Assembly: GCA_035385585.1 (NCBI GenBank)
Contig: DAOOKJ010000002.1
Coordinates: forward strand, 595-64,594
Length of the DNA: 64,000 nucleotides
Direction of reading: 5' to 3'
Origin: Minisyncoccota bacterium
GTDB lineage: Bacteria; Patescibacteriota; Minisyncoccia; UBA6257
The notes below the pieces were generated by a model. It was not told where the DNA came from and made no database searches. It saw only the letters and a list, made by a program, of their open reading frames with translations. This document shows, piece by piece, positions 2,971 through 45,724 of this stretch. A program made the translations under genes and the position numbers. How positions within the stretch are numbered: position 1 is the stretch's first letter; the number at the start of each line of letters is the position of its first letter.

Positions 2971-3474
2971 ATGTGTTTTCATACAAAATACAAAATACAA
3001 AATACAAAATACAGATTCCGCGGCTTTACTCTTGTAGAACTTCTTATTGTTATTGGTATTACTGCTACAATGGCAACGGTTGGCATTGGTTATTATATGA
3101 ACCAGCAAAAAACTAAACTTTTAGAAACCACTGCTCAAGAGATTGTTAGTTATCTAAAATATGCCCAACAAAAATCAATCTCACAAGAACAGGGATTACA
3201 ATGGGGAGTCCATTTTGAAAACCCCTCTTCTGGTCAGGATTTTTACGCTCTTTATACTGGGACCACTTATTCTAATCCAATTGAAACAAAATATCTCCCA
3301 GAAGGAATAGAATTTTCTATACCCCAAACAGCAAGTTCAGTCGATATTTCGTTTTCCAAACTCACAGGCAAAAATTATAGTGGAACTAACCAATCTGTTA
3401 CCATTCTATCTACCTTTAATAATGCTACTACCACAATTACTGTTTCTTCTTTAGGATTAGTGACTTATCAATAA
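2971..3474 (+). CDS. Type IV pilin-like protein; 18-aa basic leader then G|FTLVELLIVIGI
   Basis: Class III signal: leader ending in G, Phe +1, Glu +5, hydrophobic helix; leader is encoded by a 4x AAAATAC heptanucleotide repeat. Confidence 0.75.
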   Translation: MCFHTKYKIQNTKYRFRGFTLVELLIVIGITATMATVGIGYYMNQQKTKLLETTAQEIVSYLKYAQQKSISQEQGLQWGVHFENPSSGQDFYALYTGTTYSNPIETKYLPEGIEFSIPQTASSVDISFSKLTGKNYSGTNQSVTILSTFNNATTTITVSSLGLVTYQ

Positions 3475-3721: not shown

Positions 3722-4750
3722 GTGAAACACCAAATGCTCTTTACAAAATACAAAATACAAAATACAAAATACAGACTTTGTGGTCAATCTCTTTTAGAAC
3801 TTCTTTTATCCATTGCAGTCGGGACAATTTTAATTGGCGGGTCGGTGCTATTAATGACTACTTCTTTAAGAAGTTATCAATCAATAAAACAACGATTAAC
3901 TATTAATTCTTTATCTCGACAAGAAGCAGAGGTTATAATTTCCAAGGCTCAAGATAGTTGGCATAGTGTTTATGATTTAACAAGGGCAACAGATTATTAT
4001 ACTACTTCAACTAATAATGTTTGGAGTTTTAATTCTGGCAAAGAAGAATCCACAATTAATAATGTTTCTTATAGAAGATATTTCCAAGTGTTAGATGCTT
4101 TACGAGATGATTCAGGAAACATCGCTACTTCAGGAAATACTGACCCAAATACTTTAAAAATCAATGTTTTTTTGGAATACGGAATTAATTACAATTCTTC
4201 TTCCAGTTTAGTTTTTTATCTTACTCGTTCTTCTAATAATCAAGTTTTTCAACAGACAGACTGGTCTGAAGGACAGGGTCAAACTGGTCCTCTTCCTAAT
4301 CCCGGAAATAAATTTGATACTTCTACCAATATTAACTTCGCTTCAACAACCGGTTCTATTTATATGGCCACAACGACCATCGCGGCAGAATTAACTTCCT
4401 CTATTTTAGATACCGGTGTTGATGGAGGGGCTGGATTCAATTCGCTTCTTTGGCAAGGAAGCAAAGGAACTAATGGTTATGTTAAATTTCAGATTGCTTT
4501 TTCTAATTCTATTACTGGTCCTTGGACGTATTATGGTTGTACAACTATTCCTTCTTCTTGTTTGAATCCAAATAATTGGACAACTGCCAGCAGTTCTTTG
4601 GCTGCTTTAGAACCAAACACCTCCTTACCTTTGCCTTTTTATAGTACTCCTAGCCCTCAGAATAAACGTTATATTCGCTATAAAATTTTTCTTTCCACTT
4701 CTGGCACTTCTCCTCAAATAAATGATATAATAATAAACTGGAGCCCGTAG
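3722..4750 (+). CDS. Large pilin-like protein (prepilin-type N-terminus G|QSLLELLLSIAVG, Ser/Thr/Asn-rich body)
   Basis: Same KYKIQNTKY leader repeat as gene 2971; Glu +5; hydrophobic N-terminal helix. Confidence 0.65.
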   Translation: MKHQMLFTKYKIQNTKYRLCGQSLLELLLSIAVGTILIGGSVLLMTTSLRSYQSIKQRLTINSLSRQEAEVIISKAQDSWHSVYDLTRATDYYTTSTNNVWSFNSGKEESTINNVSYRRYFQVLDALRDDSGNIATSGNTDPNTLKINVFLEYGINYNSSSSLVFYLTRSSNNQVFQQTDWSEGQGQTGPLPNPGNKFDTSTNINFASTTGSIYMATTTIAAELTSSILDTGVDGGAGFNSLLWQGSKGTNGYVKFQIAFSNSITGPWTYYGCTTIPSSCLNPNNWTTASSSLAALEPNTSLPLPFYSTPSPQNKRYIRYKIFLSTSGTSPQINDIIINWSP

Positions 4751-32654: not shown

Positions 32655-32726
32655 TCCGGGGTAGTTCAGCGGTAGAACGCCTGGCTGTTAACCAGGATGT
32701 CCGAGGTTCGAATCCTCGCCCCGGAG
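32655..32726 (+). tRNA. tRNA-Asn (anticodon GUU)
   Basis: Closely matches the bacterial tRNA-Asn pattern: acceptor tccgggg/ccccgga, anticodon arm cctgg-cuGUUaa-ccagg, T-loop ttcgaat, discriminator G; followed by hairpin terminator caccgt-atcaa-acggtg + T-run. Confidence 0.8.
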
Positions 32727-33098
32727 CACTGTAGAACACTTTGAGGCTTGAAGCACCGTATCAAACGGTGTTTTCATTTTAAACATTAGCTTTTCATCCT
32801 TTCACCTCTGTTCGTGCACACTGAATCCATCTATTGAACGAAACCCGAACCTATTTTAGAGAAAATCCCGACGCCGACTTTTAGTTGCCAGCCCGCCGAT
32901 GGCGGGTTGACAACTAAACCCGTCGGCTCGCGGGCAAAAAATTTCTTCACCTAAAACTCCTTTATTCTTTGCCCGCTCGCCGAAATTTCAGCCATTGCCC
33001 GCAAAGCAAGCGTAGATTTTTATTCAATGGATAGTACTATTCCAATTTGGCATATTCTATTATGGAATATATCATAAAGGCAGAGGTAATGTCAAATT

Positions 33099-33320
33099 AT
33101 GAGTAAAACAATTTATTCAAAAGAACATAGGCATATCATTGAGCAATTAAAAAAAGCCCGTGAAGAGGCTAATTTATCGCAGGAAGAAGTCGCCAAAATT
33201 CTCGGTAAAACCCAATCTTATATTTCAAAAATTGAATCGGGGCAGCGAAAGATTGACGTTATTCAGTTAAAAGAATTTGCAAAAATTTACAAGAAAAATT
33301 TAGATTTTTTCTTAAAATAA
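33099..33320 (+). CDS. XRE-family HTH regulator, size and context of a restriction-modification controller (C) protein
   Basis: 73 aa, LSQEEVAKILGKTQSYISKIESGQRKI helix-turn-helix; palindromes (tgga-TAGTACTA-ttcca) in its upstream region. Confidence 0.6.
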   Translation: MSKTIYSKEHRHIIEQLKKAREEANLSQEEVAKILGKTQSYISKIESGQRKIDVIQLKEFAKIYKKNLDFFLK

Positions 33321-33323
33321 ATT

Positions 33324-33863
33324 ATGCACATAAACGAAGTAAAAACAGCAATTAAAGTCGGTGATTTCGTATTAAGAAAAGGGAGTAAAAACAAAATCAG
33401 TTTCCAGTACTCACCAAATCTTAATAAAAAAACGCTTTCCGATGACTCCGCAAGAATATATTTAATTACTCAAGACGGAATCATTAAGAAAATAGGTGGT
33501 TCAATTCAGACAGGAGGAATTAAGGGTACTATCAGTTTTTATATCGGCGCGATGACAGGAAGTCCCGGTAGGCCAAGATTTATTGTTCATTTGCTTATTG
33601 AAAAAGCTCTTAAAAGTGGTTCAAAAGTGGCTTTATATATGATTACTTCACCAAAAACATCAGCCAAAGTTAGTGGTCTATTTGAAACTAAGAAAATGAA
33701 GATCGCTAGTTTCAAAGAAATGGAGGATTTATGTAAATTTGATTACTATTCTAAAGAAAAGAAATATCCTGATTGGAACTTTCAAGAGAATCATCAACCA
33801 TATCCTCCCGAATTAGAAAGGAAGTTTATGGCTTATCACCGGAAGCGTTTGAGTAAGAAGTAA
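33324..33863 (+). CDS. Hypothetical protein; candidate type II restriction endonuclease on positional grounds only
   Basis: 179 aa, 4 bp downstream of the C-like gene, stop abuts the stop of the convergent methyltransferase; possible D...ExK (QDG...LIEKA). Confidence 0.3.
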   Translation: MHINEVKTAIKVGDFVLRKGSKNKISFQYSPNLNKKTLSDDSARIYLITQDGIIKKIGGSIQTGGIKGTISFYIGAMTGSPGRPRFIVHLLIEKALKSGSKVALYMITSPKTSAKVSGLFETKKMKIASFKEMEDLCKFDYYSKEKKYPDWNFQENHQPYPPELERKFMAYHRKRLSKK

Positions 33864-35405
33864 TTATTTTCTTGGTGGACCATAGATTATTATTTCGTGA
33901 GACTCTTTTACATATTTACCATTGCCATTTTTCTTTCTGTTTAGTCCTATTCTTGTTTCTCCTTGCCCCATAGTATATTGCCAACTTGGGAAAAATTGTT
34001 GAAAGTCTTTGTAATATTCTGTTATTGTTGGACAATTATTGTAGGAAAGAATAAATCCTCCTTTGTGATTTTTTAGTAAATCTCGCAGAACCTCGTGGGG
34101 AAATCCATTGTGATGAACTGGAATATTTCTCATTGGGTAAATACCTTTAAACATTTTTGAATCTTTTCCGATATAATAAGGTGGATCGCAGTAGAGAAAA
34201 TCATTGGGATATTTGGGTATTACATCTCGGAAATCTGCACATTCTACTTTTAAGTTCCCTGGTTTAAAATCTCGGATTTTCTCTATCATACTCCTATATC
34301 TTTTATCATTTAGGTAAATTTCTGATGACCAACCCATAAATCCAGGCCCATAAGAGAGGTTAAAGTTGTAGACAAAATAAACAGCCAAAGTAAGGGGATC
34401 TAGTTTTACTTTTTTCTCCCAAACATCTCTTAAAATCAACCTTATTTTTTCAAAGGTTGTTTTATTTGGTTTTAGTTCTTTCAGTTTTTCGTAGAGTAGT
34501 TTCGGCTTTTCTATTTGAAATTTCCAGTAATTGCATAGAATATCAAAAATATCAAATCCGATAACTTCTAATCCCAACTCTTTAGTCATGGCTATTTCAA
34601 TTGAACCCCCTCCAAAAAATGGAGAAATAACTCTTTTTATATTATCCGGTAATAATTCAATAACGTGCCCAACTGCCAAAGTTTTCCCTCCGGCGTATCT
34701 TATAGGAGAAAGAGCAACTCTTTTGTATTTATTTTGACTATTTAGATTTTTACTTCTTATGTGGTTCAAAAACATTTTCTTTTTGTAAGCGAGTGTTTTA
34801 TCTTGAGGAAAGTTTTCCAAATTTCTTATGATTTTAACAACTACGCCCCGTACCTCAACTTCTCTACGATAGATCGGCAGCATAGCTTGATTTGCCGGCT
34901 GTAACCTTATACGATTTTTCTCTCTATAAAGTTTCTTAAGAGTGGCTTCGTTATCGTCGATAATAGCCACCACCGTTTGGCCGTCATCGGCGGTTTCTTG
35001 CTTGCGAATTACAACAATATCGCCATCAAATATACCATCATTAATCATACTATCGCCCTGAACACGCAGGGCATAATATTTCTCATTTGGTCTTATTTCT
35101 TTTTTGGATATAGTAACTTTAGAATCAGACACTTCTATTGCTTCTATAGGTTGACCTGCAGCAATAGTCCCTACGATAGGAATTTTTACAATTTCATCAC
35201 GCTTTGTAGTATCAATAGCGCACGGTTTATTTTCTTCTTTTTCCAGATATCCTAAGTCGCGAAGTTTTGAAACATGAAAGTGAGCCGTTGAGACAGAAGA
35301 AAGCCGGAAATGTTTTGTTATTTCTTCCAAAGAGGGGGCATATCCCTTTTTGTCGGTAAAAGATTTTATAAAGTCTAAAACTTGTTTTTGACGTTTTGTC
35401 AGCAT
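33864..35405 (-). CDS. In-frame fusion: complete LexA repressor (winged-helix, Ala-Gly cleavage site, S24 Ser/Lys peptidase) + Dam-family (D12 class) N6-adenine DNA methyltransferase
   Basis: N-terminal region aligns with LexA (MLTKRQKQVLDFI...; VGTIAAGQPIEA; RVQGDSM...VVIRK); C-terminal region carries RYAGGK, PFFGGGS and DPPY Dam motifs. Confidence 0.75.
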   Translation of the reverse strand: MLTKRQKQVLDFIKSFTDKKGYAPSLEEITKHFRLSSVSTAHFHVSKLRDLGYLEKEENKPCAIDTTKRDEIVKIPIVGTIAAGQPIEAIEVSDSKVTISKKEIRPNEKYYALRVQGDSMINDGIFDGDIVVIRKQETADDGQTVVAIIDDNEATLKKLYREKNRIRLQPANQAMLPIYRREVEVRGVVVKIIRNLENFPQDKTLAYKKKMFLNHIRSKNLNSQNKYKRVALSPIRYAGGKTLAVGHVIELLPDNIKRVISPFFGGGSIEIAMTKELGLEVIGFDIFDILCNYWKFQIEKPKLLYEKLKELKPNKTTFEKIRLILRDVWEKKVKLDPLTLAVYFVYNFNLSYGPGFMGWSSEIYLNDKRYRSMIEKIRDFKPGNLKVECADFRDVIPKYPNDFLYCDPPYYIGKDSKMFKGIYPMRNIPVHHNGFPHEVLRDLLKNHKGGFILSYNNCPTITEYYKDFQQFFPSWQYTMGQGETRIGLNRKKNGNGKYVKESHEIIIYGPPRK

Positions 35406-35443
35406 ACTCTTTAACTTTCGATTTATTTTCGATTACACTTTAA

Positions 35444-35471
35444 TTATAGGGAACATACCAGTCAATGTCAA
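35444..35471 (-). promoter_or_regulatory. Consensus sigma70 promoter (TTGACA-17-TATAAT on the minus strand) driving the LexA-methyltransferase gene
   Basis: Minus-strand reading cttgTTGACAttgactggtatgttcccTATAATtaaag. Confidence 0.5.
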
Positions 35472-35670
35472 CAAGTTTAGTTATCCACAGAGGGATAAAA
35501 AGCTATTGGATTTCGTAGGGTTTTCAGGATTCAACCTCACTAATCCGAAAAACAATATTCTTTTACAAGAATCGGTCGAATTGTAATTGTTTAAAGGATT
35601 AATTGTTGTTTGAAATACAACAACCTGAAATATTATTAATTAAGAACCCTGTAGGTTTGGATTAGATACC

Positions 35671-36054
35671 ATGTTTATGATACAGAAACTGAATCTCATC
35701 TGGAATGGTTATTATTCATATAATGATAGTTCCGTTGAGAGAAACGTACCTGAAAGTGCAGGCGTATACAAAATAAGTGTTTCTCAACAAGATAAAACAT
35801 TAAAAGTTCATTACGTTGGCCAAGCAGAAAACCTAAGAAAAAGATTAAAAGAACACCTCGATACTAGTAATGAACAAAATGAATGTCTTGTAGAACACAT
35901 TGAAAAATATGCCTGTAGTTATAGTTTTGCATTAGTTTCAAGACAGGAAGATAGGGATGCTGCAGAGAGAGCATTGTACATTCATTACAAACCGGAATGC
36001 AATGATCCCGATGCTATTCCTAACGTGCCTGATGTAGAAATTAATCCAAACTAA
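35671..36054 (+). CDS. Small GIY-YIG nuclease-domain protein, divergent from the LexA-methyltransferase gene
   Basis: GVYKI...YVGQAENLRKRLKEH matches GIY-YIG motifs. Confidence 0.55.
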   Translation: MFMIQKLNLIWNGYYSYNDSSVERNVPESAGVYKISVSQQDKTLKVHYVGQAENLRKRLKEHLDTSNEQNECLVEHIEKYACSYSFALVSRQEDRDAAERALYIHYKPECNDPDAIPNVPDVEINPN

Positions 36055-36057
36055 GGT

Positions 36058-36098
36058 AGCGGACGCTATCTGAAAAGATAGCGTCCGCTCTTTTCTTT
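36058..36098 (+). terminator. Rho-independent terminator
   Basis: Perfect 13-bp stem agcggacgctatc/gatagcgtccgct plus T-run. Confidence 0.7.
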
Positions 36099-36254
36099 AT
36101 CTTAACATAAAAGTATGTCAGAAACATCATCACATAAAAGAGTGAAAGGACACGCAGCCGGTAAAAGTGGCGAAACAGAAAAGAAAATTAAATACGGTGG
36201 ACGCATTGATGTTTTTATTTTATTTCACGCAGATTCTAATGTGATTCAGGGCAC

Positions 36255-36345
36255 GGAGCCGTGCACCACGTAGGGTGCACGGCCATGAACCCAGCGTGGT
36301 TTATGGCTAATTTCAAAAAGCCTCTATTTATGAGGCTTTTTTATT
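36255..36345 (+). repeat. Two-hairpin structured element (ccgtgcacc-acgta-gggtgcacgg; ccatgaaccca-gcg-tggtttatgg) followed by its own terminator hairpin; copy 1 of 2
   Basis: Second near-identical copy at 37018..37102; the two copies flank gene 36397..36936. Confidence 0.6.
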
Positions 36346-36396
36346 TCTCTGGACACGTGTGGTATAATAGATAATTAAATAATATCCTATATATCT

Positions 36397-36936
36397 ATGT
36401 CTAAAAAAATAATCATTCCAATAATAGTAGTTATGGTGGGAGGATATTTAGTTTATCACCCTCCAAAAGGAATCAAGCAATCAACGGAAACGCAGAAGTT
36501 TACTCTAGATGCTAAAAATTGCACTTATCTCATTGAAGGTCAGAATATTACTTTAATAAATGGATATTCAGAAGAAGAAATTGCTTCTGGCTCTGCCTCA
36601 AAAATAATTACTAAATATTTTGGTAATGAGGCAGCAGGAGATTTTAATAACGATGGTTTTTCTGATGTAGCCTTTCTTTTAACGCAGGAGACTGGTGGGA
36701 GTGGTACTTTCTTCTATGTAGCAGTTGCCTTAGGGAGTGAGAATAAATGTCTTGGCACTAATGCTATTTTTCTTGGCGACCGAATTGCTCCCCAAACAAT
36801 CAATTTTCAAAATGGCGAAATAATTGTCAACTATGCAGATAGAAATCCAGACGAACCAATGACGGCATCTCCGTCAGTTGGGGTCTCAAAATACTTTCAT
36901 ATAAACGAAGGTCAGTTAGTTGAAATTCAAAAATAA
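36397..36936 (+). CDS. Secreted/membrane-anchored hypothetical protein
   Basis: N-terminal TM/signal IIIPIIVVMVGGYLV; extended -10 promoter tgtggtataat at about 36355. Confidence 0.5.
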   Translation: MSKKIIIPIIVVMVGGYLVYHPPKGIKQSTETQKFTLDAKNCTYLIEGQNITLINGYSEEEIASGSASKIITKYFGNEAAGDFNNDGFSDVAFLLTQETGGSGTFFYVAVALGSENKCLGTNAIFLGDRIAPQTINFQNGEIIVNYADRNPDEPMTASPSVGVSKYFHINEGQLVEIQK

Positions 36937-37017
36937 AATTATAGTTGAGGAGATAAGTCAGGAATGAAAATTGCTTTTCTGTTCGTGATAAACCAGCTTA
37001 TGACTGCCTAAACCCCT

Positions 37018-37102
37018 GTGAGCCGTGCACCACGTAGGGTGCACGGGCCATGAACCCAACGTGGTTTATGGCTTTTTAAAATCGCCCAAAAGGCGATTTT
37101 TT
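37018..37102 (+). repeat. Copy 2 of the two-hairpin element plus terminator hairpin (aaaatcgcccaaaaggcgatttttt)
   Basis: About 90% identical to 36255..36308 over ~55 nt. Confidence 0.6.
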
Positions 37103-37406
37103 GATATAATAGGAATTCAAATGTTTTTTTGATAGATTTTGCCGCTTCTGGAAAGTTTTCCACCTTATTTTTTTGAGTAAAAAATGATACTCTATACTTA
37201 ATATGCAGTTTGAAGAGTTACTTAATCTTTATAAAGAAAAGAAAAAGCCATACAGTAAGATAAAACTAAGAAAACAATGAAATAGTCCCAATTTAAGAAA
37301 ATTCTTAAAAATTCAATAGTCAAAATGTCAAAAGTCAATGGAATGACTAAAATTTAATATGGAGGATAAAAAATATGGACGAGCAGATGACAACATAAAT
37401 TTCTCC

Positions 37407-39848: not shown

Positions 39849-40202
39849 ACTGGTAATATTTTAAACTATAAAATGTAATAAAGTCAATTCCTAGAGTTTA
39901 AGAGGTTATAAGTACTTTATAAATTGTTGCAAATTGATTAGCTGTCTCTTTGTCGCAGAATAATTTTTTTAAATTTAAAACATTAATTTGTTTAATAATC
40001 ACCATTATCGTCACCGATTCCGTGATAAAAATCCCTCATTATGTCTTAAAAATACCTAAATTTAGCGATCATTAGAATTTCTTCCGAAACATTAAAGGAA
40101 GAAATGTGGCCCCCGACCTTAAAAAAGCCATATGGCCCTAGGAATTACCTAAGGCTTTTTTTATTTCACACAGGTTCTAATGTAATCCAGTATTCGGAGC
40201 TA

Positions 40203-40262
40203 CTATTGACTCTTGGTTTTATTTATAGTATGATATAAATACCTTGTAATAGGGTATTTTAA
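40203..40262 (+). promoter_or_regulatory. Promoter-operator module TTGACT-17-TATGAT followed by palindrome atacc-N9-ggtat; paralogous copy at 45569..45628
   Basis: ~85% identity over 55 bp between the two copies. Confidence 0.5.
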
Positions 40263-40331
40263 TAAAAACAAGGTAGTTCTTTGAAAACTATCACATAATT
40301 TATATATAAAAATATAAAAAGGAGGCGAACA

Positions 40332-40737: not shown

Positions 40738-40768
40738 TACCCCAGAGTATTTCTGGGGCTTTTTTATT
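40738..40768 (+). terminator. Rho-independent terminator
   Basis: ccccagag/ctctgggg-type stem + T-run. Confidence 0.6.
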
Positions 40769-40857
40769 TTTCATTTATGGGACTTTTTTGTTTTTTGGTA
40801 AGTGTGGTATAATACATATAAGTTTCATACGTTTACGTTTATAAAGCCTAATATATA

Positions 40858-45364: not shown

Positions 45365-45568
45365 TTAAATTACCTCTATTTCTATTTTAATATCATAATT
45401 TCAATATTATACACTGTATTAAATGCTTTTCAAGCGATGAAATATAATTTATCTTAAATTTTTCTTTTATAAAATTGTAATTTGTTTCTTTTTTATTCGT
45501 TATATACCAAATCCCCCGGAATTAGAGAAAAAGGGATGAGATTTACAAAGAATAATCGATCTTCAGAA

Positions 45569-45628
45569 ATTGACTTTTAATTTTATTTATAGTATGATAT
45601 AAATACCAAGTAATAGAGTATTTTTGGT
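45569..45628 (+). promoter_or_regulatory. Second copy of the TTGACT-17-TATGAT promoter-operator module
   Basis: See 40203..40262. Confidence 0.5.
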
Positions 45629-45724
45629 AAATTTTAACTAGTACCTTGAAAAAATGTACCTTCCTAATCGGCAAACTGTTCATTATCTTATTTTTAGTGG
45701 CTAGTTTGCCGATTAGGTAAGGAG

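What the first reader, a model, noticed from the sequence alone, without database searches (positions are those of the whole stretch)
36216..37102. Paired two-hairpin elements with their own terminators flanking a single secreted-protein gene
The unit ccgtgcacc-acgta-gggtgcacgg + ccatgaaccca-gcg-tggtttatgg (two 9-bp stems) occurs at 36255..36308 and 37018..37072. Each copy is followed within ~8 nt by a separate terminator hairpin (36316..36345; 37078..37102). The copies bracket gene 36397..36936 together with its extended -10 promoter. Copy 1 is preceded by a 35-bp block (ttatttcacgcagattctaatgtgattcag) that recurs at 40161..40200 in front of a different promoter. These could be small-RNA genes, cassette boundary sites, or a mosaic intergenic repeat family.
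Basis: seen in the sequence. Interest (0 to 1): 0.5.

Follow-up and report, generated by a model that had tools for sequence, protein, structure and literature searches.

The report
Orphan tRNA-linked twin hairpins of nuclease cassette
The two repeats are leftover copies of a conserved double-hairpin that in related bacteria sits between a tRNA gene and a tiny GIY-YIG nuclease gene, and here they mark the joints of gene cassettes that are swapped between strains, pointing to a seemingly undescribed selfish element found in several phyla.

Summary
A 53/54-nt, GC-rich unit of two hairpins occurs twice (36256-36308 and 37020-37073). The copies are 96% identical, while their flanks are about 50% identical. 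A covariance model finds no other copy in the 64 kb.

It is not a small-RNA gene. In relatives of this Patescibacteria genome the same unit lies directly after tRNA-Asn, and its first stem starts at the discriminator base. It lies directly before an 83-aa stand-alone GIY-YIG nuclease gene of the UPF0213/Slx1-like type.

This tRNA / twin hairpin / GIY-YIG module recurs in candidate phyla radiation (CPR) lineages, Planctomycetota and Thermodesulfobacteriota. All 7 loci chosen by the protein alone carry the unit just upstream. Across 17 units, 99% of stem positions pair and 8 of 16 pairs show compensatory changes.

In the window the nuclease ORF is cleanly missing. It is intact in one relative and frameshifted in another. 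A 3.5-kb restriction-modification islet separates tRNA-Asn from copy 1. Each copy follows a degenerate ~75-nt block ending in GAGC, which is the tRNA's 3' end.

These junction modules bound cassettes that differ between strains. The best reading is orphan cis-sites of a selfish nuclease cassette that serve as recombination joints. The molecular role of the hairpins remains inferred.

The parts
32655..32727 (+). tRNA-Asn (GTT). In relatives the twin-hairpin unit follows it directly. Here it is followed by an inserted islet.
   Evidence: ARAGORN and Rfam. In L106, L133, L136, L137, L140 and L150 the unit starts at the discriminator base of tRNA-Asn.
32728..36214 (.). Inserted islet X between tRNA-Asn and copy 1. 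It carries a 370-nt non-coding left end, an HTH protein, a 179-aa protein, a LexA-S24-Dam methyltransferase fusion, a 127-aa GIY-YIG protein and a 52-aa ORF.
   Evidence: The islet is absent at this place in L106, where tRNA-Asn abuts the unit. Its first 85 nt recur in L106 at 4136-4220, behind a block-A copy.
36185..36259 (+). Block A1, a junction block ending in CGGAGC, which equals the last 6 nt of tRNA-Asn. It may be a decayed tRNA-Asn 3' fragment.
   Evidence: Repeat family D2 and alignment A2 with copies in the window, L106 and L133. The conserved core TTCTAA aligns with the T-loop TTCGAA, but weakly, with p = 0.01-0.2.
36256..36308 (+). Twin-hairpin unit, copy 1. Hairpin 1 is at 36258-36283 with loop ACGTAG. 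Hairpin 2 is at 36281-36308 with loop CAGCGT, an inverted version of the first.
   Evidence: The covariance model scores 77.4 bits on the + strand against 62.9 on the - strand.
36315..36368 (+). Terminator-promoter module T1P: terminator-like hairpin at 36315-36341 and extended -10 TGgTATAAT at 36360-36368. It is reused at 40748-40818 and in L106, L133 and L145.
   Evidence: (D1, D4). In L106 and L145 the GIY-YIG ORF lies between the unit and this module. In the window 6 nt take its place.
36397..36936 (+). 179-aa protein with an N-terminal membrane anchor, a member of a very common Patescibacteria family. It is the cargo between the two copies.
   Evidence: There are 2974 homologues, all unnamed. 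The same gene occurs in other contexts in L145, L147 and L148.
36950..37022 (+). Block A', a degenerate copy of block A ending in GTGAGC, directly before copy 2.
   Evidence: Alignment A2. The stretch is conserved at 98% in L145, in front of its unit.
37020..37073 (+). Twin-hairpin unit, copy 2. Hairpin 1 is at 37023-37046. Hairpin 2 is at 37045-37074, followed by TTTTT.
   Evidence: The covariance model scores 79.2 bits on the + strand.
37078..37102 (+). Terminator-like hairpin T2 with a T run. The unit+T2 module recurs, decayed, at L145 19-116.
   Evidence: Fold and blastn of L145 against the window.
40156..40200 (+). Block A2, which ends in CGGAGC but is followed by a promoter and a 129-aa gene rather than by a unit.
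   Evidence: (D2).

Best explanation
The 54-nt unit is the cis element of a small selfish nuclease cassette. It is not a gene of its own.

**Native form (shown in relatives).** The order is tRNA gene, then twin hairpin, then about 20-45 nt, then an 83-aa stand-alone GIY-YIG nuclease of the UPF0213/Slx1-like type. The first stem begins at the tRNA's discriminator base and contains the CCA/CCG positions. The second hairpin is an inverted version of the first.

**State in this genome (shown).**
- The nuclease ORF has been lost from behind copy 1.
- A restriction-modification islet has been inserted exactly between the tRNA-Asn 3' end (...CGGAGC) and the unit.
- The unit now occurs twice, each time behind a degenerate block that ends in GAGC.
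- These [block A | unit] joints, together with a reused terminator-promoter module, are the breakpoints at which strains differ in cassette content.

**How it works (inferred).**
- The hairpins are the DNA site that the structure-specific nuclease recognises or next to which it homes.
- Breaks made there are repaired from other copies.
- That repair spreads the ORF into empty units, copies tRNA-end fragments along with the unit, and swaps whatever lies between two units.
- The two orphan copies are therefore remnants and portable recombination joints. For the 179-aa mRNA, copy 2 is at most a 3'-UTR structure.
For: **Native context.**
- The tRNA-Asn | unit | GIY-YIG order is seen in L106, L132, L133, L135-L138 and L150.
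- The same module lies behind tRNA-Ser or tRNA-Asn in Yanofskybacteria, Roizmanbacteria, Planctomycetota and Thermodesulfobacteriota.
- It lies next to tRNA-Leu in Vogelbacteria and Saccharibacteria.

**Association tested from the protein side.**
- All 7 loci picked only by similarity to the 83-aa protein carry a unit within about 100 nt upstream.
- 14 loci with a unit have the small GIY-YIG ORF beside it.

**Conserved structure.**
- Across 17 units, 99.3% of cells pair and 8 of 16 pairs have compensatory changes. None of 500 shuffles reach these values, and slid controls give 22-45% pairing.
- Loop sequences (ACGTAG and its inverse) are conserved across phyla.

**Selfish-gene life cycle.**
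- The ORF is intact in L106.
- It is frameshifted by an 11-nt deletion in L145.
- It is cleanly absent in the window, where 279 nt are replaced by 6 nt.
- L145's cassette is about 98% identical to L106's, although the core genes differ by 9-20%.

**Signs of mobility.**
- The element is flanked by duplicated tRNA fragments of 19-21 nt in L142, L042 and L046.
- L067 has a pseudo-tRNA end plus hairpins repeated 320 nt apart.
- A twin hairpin is nested inside another in L134.

**Junction logic.** All four combinations are observed: tRNA|unit, tRNA|islet X, block A|unit, and block A|X left end.

**Not a plain duplication.** The units are 96% identical while their flanks are about 50% identical.

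**Nuclease family.** The protein hits Pfam GIY-YIG only. Its best solved relatives are UPF0213 proteins 1zg2 and 1ywl, then SLX1. Prokaryotic Slx1-like proteins are the minimal stand-alone form of the domain (PMC1564403).
Against: - No biochemical evidence links the nuclease to the hairpins. The link rests on co-occurrence.
- The unit always lies on the transcribed strand between the tRNA and the ORF, which fits an RNA role equally well. Wobble pairs (8 G-U/U-G cells against 2 A-C cells) lean slightly towards a single-stranded sense-strand function.
- The unit stays intact in occupied loci, so a simple 'the site is destroyed by insertion' homing model does not hold as such.
- The window genome itself does not encode the 83-aa nuclease within these 64 kb. 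Any present-day activity at these copies would need a copy elsewhere in the genome.
- Block A's tRNA ancestry is statistically weak.
- Copy number per genome could not be measured.
Confidence: 0.55

Rival explanations
1. The unit is an RNA element. It is transcribed with the tRNA and works as a processing or insulating signal. After the tRNA 3' end is cut at the discriminator, hairpin 1 becomes a protective 5'-terminal stem for the nuclease mRNA. In orphan copies it would act as a 3'-UTR stabiliser or terminator aid.
For: - The unit has the same orientation as the tRNA and the ORF in every occupied locus.
- Hairpin 1 pairs with the CCA/CCG positions of the tRNA.
- Compensatory changes occur with G-U intermediates on the sense strand.
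- Both window copies sit just before terminators, and copy 2's hairpin 2 plus TTTTT is terminator-like.
Against: - Loop sequences, and the inverted relation of the two loops, are conserved across phyla. A mere stabiliser does not need this.
- In L080 an orphan unit lies between two genes on the opposite strand.
- Nested and tandem copies (L134, L066, L067) look like propagation of DNA.
- There is no Rfam family.
Confidence: 0.22
2. Each hairpin is a lox/dif-like site for a site-specific recombinase encoded elsewhere: 9-bp inverted arms around a 6-bp asymmetric spacer. The 764-bp segment between the direct repeats would then be an excisable cassette, much like an integron cassette.
For: - The 9-6-9 geometry with an asymmetric spacer.
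- Direct repeats bracket a single gene. Similar brackets occur in L133 (2.9 kb) and L145 (2.8 kb).
- The junction combinations resemble attB, attP, attL and attR.
Against: - No tyrosine or serine recombinase was found among the genes annotated around the locus or among 20 further window ORFs.
- Islet X joins at CGGAGC, outside the hairpins.
- The breakpoint with L145 lies in the terminator, not in the unit.
- attC features are absent.
- The cassette has its own promoter.
Confidence: 0.1
3. The units are independent small-RNA genes of about 60-90 nt, each ending at its own terminator.
For: The fold is stable and a terminator follows each copy.
Against: - No promoter-like site lies upstream of either copy.
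- There is no Rfam match.
- In relatives the unit starts inside the tRNA gene and no terminator follows it; the nuclease ORF follows instead.
Confidence: 0.03
4. The pair is a recent local duplication or an assembly artefact with no function.
For: There are only two copies in 64 kb.
Against: - The same arrangement occurs in 8 independent metagenome assemblies.
- The flanks are about 50% identical while the units are 96% identical.
- The unit is conserved, with covariation, across phyla.
Confidence: 0.02

Closest known systems
REP / BIME / REPIN elements with their RAYT (Y1 HUH) transposases (from my own knowledge: Nunvar 2010; Bertels and Rainey 2011; Ton-Hoang 2012; Messing 2012)
   Same: Both are short, GC-rich extragenic palindromes that occur as inverted doublets and sometimes as arrays of alternating orientation. 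Both keep their stems through compensatory changes and sit beside a single-copy nuclease-type gene. A GTAG motif is present.
   Different: The neighbouring gene is a minimal GIY-YIG nuclease, not a Y1 HUH protein. GTAG lies in the loop rather than 5' of the stem. The units are tied to tRNA 3' ends. Copy number looks low (2 in 64 kb). The same loop and stem consensus is shared across phyla, whereas REPs are species-specific.
Free-standing GIY-YIG homing endonuclease genes of phages, e.g. T4 SegB in the tRNA gene cluster (PMC2330249)
   Same: Both are small GIY-YIG ORFs inserted between conserved genes next to tRNA genes. Both show presence/absence polymorphism with sharp borders. Intact, degenerate and lost states are seen here, and neighbouring DNA is co-converted.
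   Different: Seg and I-TevI enzymes carry a C-terminal DNA-binding domain, whereas these proteins are the 83-aa catalytic domain only. The elements here are chromosomal in bacteria of several phyla. They have a conserved twin hairpin, which Seg genes lack.
UPF0213 / prokaryotic Slx1-like stand-alone GIY-YIG proteins (PDB 1zg2, 1ywl; PMC1564403)
   Same: These are the best sequence matches of the associated 83-aa protein, with the same minimal domain. Eukaryotic Slx1 cuts branched and stem-loop DNA (my own knowledge), which fits a hairpin substrate.
   Different: The function of UPF0213 proteins is unknown. I found no report of a link to tRNA genes or to a cis hairpin in the papers I searched.
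Integron gene cassettes with attC sites
   Same: Both have single-gene units bounded by structured repeats, in an array that differs between strains.
   Different: There is no IntI gene and no attC architecture (a single imperfect hairpin with a GTTRRRY core). The cassettes here have their own promoters. The array starts at a tRNA gene rather than at attI.
tRNA-targeted genomic islands (att repeats made of the tRNA 3' end)
   Same: The variable region starts exactly at the 3' end of tRNA-Asn. Its internal joints end in the same 5-6 nt (GGAGC) and carry a T-loop-like TTCTAA.
   Different: No integrase was found. The shared identity is only 6 nt plus a weak resemblance. The islets are very small (0.8-3.5 kb).

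Membership tests
REP/REPIN-RAYT | Short imperfect palindrome, often as an inverted doublet | tested here: met
   There are two 9-11-bp stems. Loop 2 is the reverse complement type of loop 1.
REP/REPIN-RAYT | Conserved GTAG tetranucleotide flanking the stem on its 5' side | tested here: not met
   GTAG lies inside the loop of hairpin 1 (ACGTAG), not outside the stem.
REP/REPIN-RAYT | Associated RAYT (Y1 HUH transposase) gene flanked by the repeats | tested here: not met
   The neighbouring gene in 14 loci is a GIY-YIG protein. No Y1 transposase was found among the window ORFs tested.
REP/REPIN-RAYT | Tens to hundreds of copies per genome | not testable with these tools
   Only 64 kb of this genome is available, and it holds 2 copies. 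No complete genome could be scanned.
Free-standing GIY-YIG homing endonuclease cassette | GIY-YIG ORF present or absent between the same flanking sequences in related genomes | tested here: met
   The ORF lies between the unit and the terminator T1. It is intact in L106, frameshifted in L145, and absent in the window.
Free-standing GIY-YIG homing endonuclease cassette | Two-domain enzyme: GIY-YIG domain plus a C-terminal DNA-binding domain | tested here: not met
   The proteins are 83-86 aa and hit Pfam PF01541 over residues 1-71 only.
Free-standing GIY-YIG homing endonuclease cassette | Endonuclease cuts the ORF-less allele near the insertion point | not testable with these tools
   This needs an enzyme assay.
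Integron cassette / attC | IntI integrase and attI next to the array | tested here: not met
   No recombinase domain was found in the genes around the locus or in 20 further ORFs.
Integron cassette / attC | attC: one imperfect hairpin with R''-L''/L'-R' and a GTTRRRY core | tested here: not met
   The unit is two separate perfect hairpins with no GTTRRRY.
tRNA-targeted integrative island | Direct repeats of the tRNA 3' part at both ends | tested here: inconclusive
   Only CGGAGC is shared. The T-loop-like core gives p = 0.01-0.2, and whole-flank tests give p = 0.1-0.7.
tRNA-targeted integrative island | Integrase gene inside the island | tested here: not met
   Islet X encodes an HTH protein, a 179-aa protein, a LexA-Dam fusion and a GIY-YIG protein, with no integrase.
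Known RNA family (Rfam 15) | Match at or near a family's gathering score | tested here: not met
   No hit at gathering threshold in the window. The best hits at E <= 10 score 14-24 bits against cut-offs of 34-176.
Intrinsic terminator | GC-rich hairpin directly followed by a U run | tested here: inconclusive
   In copy 2, hairpin 2 is followed by TTTTT. Copy 1 and the units in relatives are not followed by a U run.
UPF0213 / Slx1-like GIY-YIG (the associated protein in relatives) | Stand-alone minimal GIY-YIG domain closest to UPF0213 structures | tested here: met
   PF01541 at E = 1e-16 to 1e-19. PDB 1zg2 at E = 2.5e-9, 1ywl at 9.5e-7, and SLX1 7wme at 0.034.

The most novel reading that the evidence does not exclude
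The twin hairpin and the minimal Slx1-like GIY-YIG nuclease together form a previously undescribed class of mobile element. It would be a GIY-YIG counterpart of the REPIN/RAYT partnership that targets the 3' ends of tRNA genes. It has spread across CPR bacteria, Planctomycetota and Thermodesulfobacteriota. It leaves orphan hairpin units that act as joints for cassette exchange in tRNA-linked variable regions.
Probability: 0.35. Interest if true: 0.75.

Novelty: new variant of a known kind. Interest (0 to 1): 0.6.

Why it matters
If the reading holds, it gives the large and functionally unassigned UPF0213/Slx1-like family of stand-alone GIY-YIG proteins a concrete substrate: a hairpin with a conserved loop next to a tRNA end. 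It also gives them a biological role as a selfish cassette.

It would add a second, unrelated nuclease type to the 'palindromic repeat plus domesticated or selfish nuclease' theme, known so far from REP/RAYT.

It would also explain how very small genomes of Patescibacteria shuffle single-gene cassettes at tRNA-linked hot spots without integrases.

The element is short, strongly structured and easy to model. A genome-wide census and a simple cleavage assay would therefore settle the question.

Tried and rejected
1. **Pseudo-tRNA flanks.** Local alignment of the 65-nt flanks to tRNA-Asn was not better than shuffles (p = 0.1-0.7). Only a T-loop-like core and GGAGC remain, so I kept the idea as 'possible'.
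2. **Rfam families.** Nothing was found.
3. **Phage origin.**
   - BLAST of the unit against phage records gave one chance hit.
   - The junction pattern in viral contigs gave 4 chance hits in high-GC coding DNA.
   - The nuclease gave one weak partial hit in viral contigs.
4. **Genome-collection scan with the exact hairpin-1 stems.** The useful leads were the low-GC hits. The model later separated the true units (at least 55 bits) from the chance hits (at most 30 bits).
5. **Integrase or recombinase in the window.** None was found.
6. **Precise empty site for the 179-aa cassette.** The 8 closest assemblies all carry both copies. L145 lacks the upstream unit, but its breakpoint lies in the terminator, so this is not a clean excision.
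7. **Literature.** Searches for a described tRNA / hairpin / GIY-YIG element found nothing relevant.
Full report
**1. The observation**

The window carries a unit of two adjacent hairpins at 36256-36308 and again at 37020-37073. The sequence is GAGC-CGTGCACC-ACGTAG-GGTGCACG-G-CCATGAACC-CAGCGT-GGTTTATGG-CT.

The copies differ by one loop base and one extra G between the hairpins, so 52 of 54 positions match. The 75 nt upstream and 40 nt downstream are only about 50% identical.

Each half occurs exactly twice in 64 kb at up to three mismatches, with none expected by chance. A scan for all 6-nt-loop hairpins shows these four are the only ones of their kind in the window.

The unit has 62% G+C in a 33% G+C window. 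It folds far better than shuffles, with z = -4.7 and -4.3.

A terminator-like hairpin follows each copy: 36315-36341 and 37078-37100. The upstream block is also confirmed: 36215-36259 recurs at 40156-40200, 45 nt at 80% identity.

**2. Source organism and local gene content**

The gene content and the matches point to a Patescibacteria (Paceibacterota-like) genome from anaerobic digesters. Eight independent metagenome contigs carry the identical 179-aa protein with the same arrangement and both copies.

The window around the finding reads, in order:
- cupin and dCTP deaminase genes
- tRNA-Asn (32655-32727)
- a small islet: HTH protein, 179-aa protein, LexA-S24-Dam methyltransferase fusion, 127-aa GIY-YIG protein
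- block A1, unit copy 1, terminator-promoter module
- the 179-aa membrane-anchored protein
- block A', unit copy 2, terminator
- a PPDK_N-domain gene on the other strand
- block A2, a 129-aa gene, a second terminator-promoter module, a 229-aa gene
- ABC transporters

There is no Rfam family at gathering scores or at E <= 10 with a credible score.

**3. Where the unit belongs**

A scan of one genome per species with the exact hairpin-1 stems was mostly noise from high-GC genomes. It nevertheless produced the key lead. In a Paceibacterota genome (L106, 80-91% identical to the window in shared genes) the unit lies immediately after tRNA-Asn. The G of the first stem is the tRNA's discriminator base.

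An 83-aa ORF follows 38 nt later. That ORF is a stand-alone GIY-YIG domain (Pfam PF01541, E = 1e-19). After it comes the same terminator-promoter module that follows copy 1 in the window.

A metagenome scan with a junction pattern gave seven more loci. All have tRNA-Asn, then the unit, then the GIY-YIG ORF. One of them has a different tRNA-Asn sequence, and L134 has a second twin hairpin nested inside hairpin 2.

Low-GC hits of the first scan show the same design in other phyla:
- **Thermodesulfobacteriota:** tRNA-Ser followed by hairpin arrays and the GIY-YIG ORF (L067, L050).
- **Vogelbacteria and Saccharibacteria:** hairpin doublet plus ORF, flanked by a 21-nt duplication of the 5' end of tRNA-Leu (L042, L046).

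**4. Testing the association from the protein side**

I searched with the 83-aa protein and found 938 homologues, named only 'GIY-YIG nuclease family protein' or 'putative endonuclease', mostly on short contigs. I then fetched loci for seven diverse hits without regard to hairpins. All seven carry a unit within about 100 nt upstream of the ORF:
- **Four with a tRNA directly upstream:** Yanofskybacteria (tRNA-Ser), Roizmanbacteria (tRNA-Asn), an unnamed contig (tRNA-Ser) and Gribaldobacteria (tRNA-Asn).
- **One with duplicated tRNA fragments:** Planctomycetota, where a tRNA-Asn 3' fragment is duplicated on both sides of the element.
- **Two with a decayed tRNA-like end:** contigs where the unit follows a remnant finishing in GAGC.

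A profile search of all held loci finds the small GIY-YIG ORF beside the unit in 14 loci. Orphan units occur in the window, at L133's second copy, and in L098, L080 and L066.

**5. Structure**

An alignment of 17 units from these lineages keeps both stems. 99.3% of cells form standard pairs, and 8 of 16 pairs show changes on both sides (31 cells). No shuffle out of 500 reaches these values, and slid controls fall to 22-45% pairing.

The loops are conserved in sequence. Hairpin 1 has A(C/T)GT(A/T/C)G. Hairpin 2 has the reverse-complement type, C(A/C/T)(A/G)CGT or TTACAT. At the DNA level the unit is therefore an inverted pair of one hairpin type.

A covariance model built from this alignment scores true units at 55-85 bits. 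It scores the chance palindromes from the first scan at 30 bits or less. It finds only the two copies in the window with filters off. The sense strand always scores 7-17 bits higher, so the orientation of the unit is defined.

**6. What happened in this genome**

Comparison with L106 and with L145 (a strain whose 179-aa gene is 98% identical) gives the history.

- **(a) The nuclease ORF is an indel.** It lies exactly between the unit and the terminator. It is intact in L106. It is frameshifted by an 11-nt deletion in L145, with a stop after 7 codons. It is replaced by 6 nt in the window.
- **(b) Islet X sits between the tRNA and copy 1.** It lies exactly between the last base of ...CGGAGC of tRNA-Asn and block A1-CGGAGC|unit. 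Its first 85 nt occur in L106 behind another block A copy. All four joints exist: tRNA|unit, tRNA|X, block A|unit and block A|X.
- **(c) Block A is about 75 nt long, and a degenerate copy precedes copy 2**. The 179-aa gene therefore lies in a segment bounded by two [block A | unit] joints.
- **(d) The same kind of bracket occurs elsewhere.** It is seen in L133 (2.9 kb containing the nuclease and four genes), in L145 (2.8 kb) and in L067 (320 nt).
- **(e) L145 is a mosaic.** Its 179-aa gene and PPDK gene are window-like (94-98%). Its nuclease cassette and 235-aa gene are L106-like (about 98%). The switches occur at the reused modules.
- **(f) The pair is not obligatory around this gene.** In L145 the 179-aa gene has no unit upstream.

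**7. Block A**

The whole flanks are not significantly tRNA-like. However, the invariant core TTCTAA lines up with the T-loop TTCGAA at about the right distance from the terminal GGAGC in four of six copies, with p = 0.01-0.2 each.

Clear partial tRNA duplications flank the element in L142, L042, L046 and L067. L153 and L154 carry similar decayed ends. I regard block A as probably a decayed tRNA-Asn 3' fragment carried along with the unit. This is not established.

**8. Mechanism**

*Shown:*
- the module architecture
- its conservation with covariation
- the ORF presence, pseudogene and absence series
- the cassette mosaicism at the repeated joints

*Inferred:* the hairpins are the DNA site of the neighbouring nuclease.

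The inference rests on three points:
- the strict co-occurrence of unit and nuclease
- the conserved loops and the inverted symmetry of the two hairpins
- the family of the protein, whose nearest solved relatives are UPF0213 proteins and, more weakly, SLX1

Prokaryotic Slx1-like proteins are the minimal stand-alone form of the domain (PMC1564403). That Slx1 is structure-specific is from my own knowledge. The closest functional precedent for a GIY-YIG gene living among tRNA genes is phage T4 SegB (PMC2330249).

The main rival is an RNA role, in tRNA-trailer processing or mRNA end protection. It fits the fixed orientation and the sense-strand wobble pairs. It does not explain the conserved, mutually inverted loops, the nested and tandem copies, or the orphan unit lying opposite to transcription in L080.

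A recombinase-site reading fits the 9-6-9 geometry and the direct repeats. It lacks any recombinase, and the observed breakpoints lie outside the hairpins.

The small-RNA reading has no promoter and no support from relatives.

**9. Comparison with known systems, and novelty**

The element works most like REP/REPIN repeats with their RAYT gene, and like free-standing GIY-YIG homing genes. It fails defining features of both:
- there is no Y1 transposase
- GTAG is in the loop rather than flanking the stem
- the nuclease has no DNA-binding domain

It is not an integron and not a classical tRNA island. I found no Rfam family and no paper describing a tRNA / twin-hairpin / GIY-YIG module in the library searched. 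This is not proof that none exists.

I rate it a new variant of a known kind, namely selfish nuclease cassettes with palindromic cis elements. The window itself holds only two orphan remnants, which are of moderate interest alone. The family they reveal is the interesting part.

Noticed in passing
window 33864-35405 (- strand): A 513-aa protein fuses a LexA DNA-binding domain and S24 peptidase to a D12-class (Dam-like) adenine methyltransferase. It lies next to an HTH protein and an unassigned 179-aa protein. This looks like a restriction-modification islet whose methylase carries a self-cleaving repressor module.
   Followed up: partly
window 32728-33098: A 370-nt non-coding, relatively GC-rich left end of the islet contains a long hairpin (about 32885-32925). 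Its first 85 nt recur at 92% in L106 4136-4220 behind a block A copy. It could be an RNA or an end of the islet.
   Followed up: partly
window 36315-36373 and 40748-40818; L106 1526-1592; L133 about 3380-3450; L145 3142-3209: A terminator plus extended -10 promoter module is reused in front of different secreted-protein genes. It serves as a recombination breakpoint between strains.
   Followed up: partly
window 40204-40270 and about 45560-45630: A second reused promoter module (ATTGACT..TTTTATTTATAGTATGATATAAATACC..GTAATAG) stands in front of two unrelated genes. The copy at 45480-45560 is preceded by what may be a decayed block A.
   Followed up: partly
window 35671-36054: A 127-aa GIY-YIG protein of a different subfamily lies about 200 nt upstream of copy 1. 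Its best profile matches are the UvrC N-terminus and the group I intron endonuclease family. The profile of the 83-aa family does not match it.
   Followed up: partly
window 36115-36273 (+) and 37008-37163 (-): ORFs of 52 and 51 aa run into or across the units. Some metagenome annotations call them genes. They have no family match and are probably artefacts of the GC-rich hairpins.
   Followed up: partly
L134 3650-3740: A complete twin hairpin is nested between the 5' arm and the loop of hairpin 2 of another unit. This suggests that units can insert into units.
   Followed up: partly
L066 440-780 (Pirellulales) and L067 6225-6710, L098 1259-1400 (Thermodesulfobacteriota): There are tandem arrays of up to about a dozen related hairpins in alternating orientation. 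Some have no nuclease gene nearby. They are reminiscent of BIME-like mosaics.
   Followed up: partly
L142 640-1050; L046 2590-2960; L042 3680-4031: The hairpin-plus-nuclease element is flanked by direct duplications of 19-21 nt of a tRNA gene. These are the 3' end of tRNA-Asn in L142 and the 5' end of tRNA-Leu in L046 and L042. They look like long target duplications or co-converted tRNA pieces.
   Followed up: partly
table: Most homologues of the 83-aa nuclease sit on very short contigs, often under 2 kb. This would be expected if the cassette is repeated or polymorphic and breaks assemblies.
   Followed up: no
L143 5075-5252 and L134 3156-3461: Second, more divergent small GIY-YIG ORFs lie within a few kb of the first. 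Several paralogous cassettes per genome are therefore likely.
   Followed up: no
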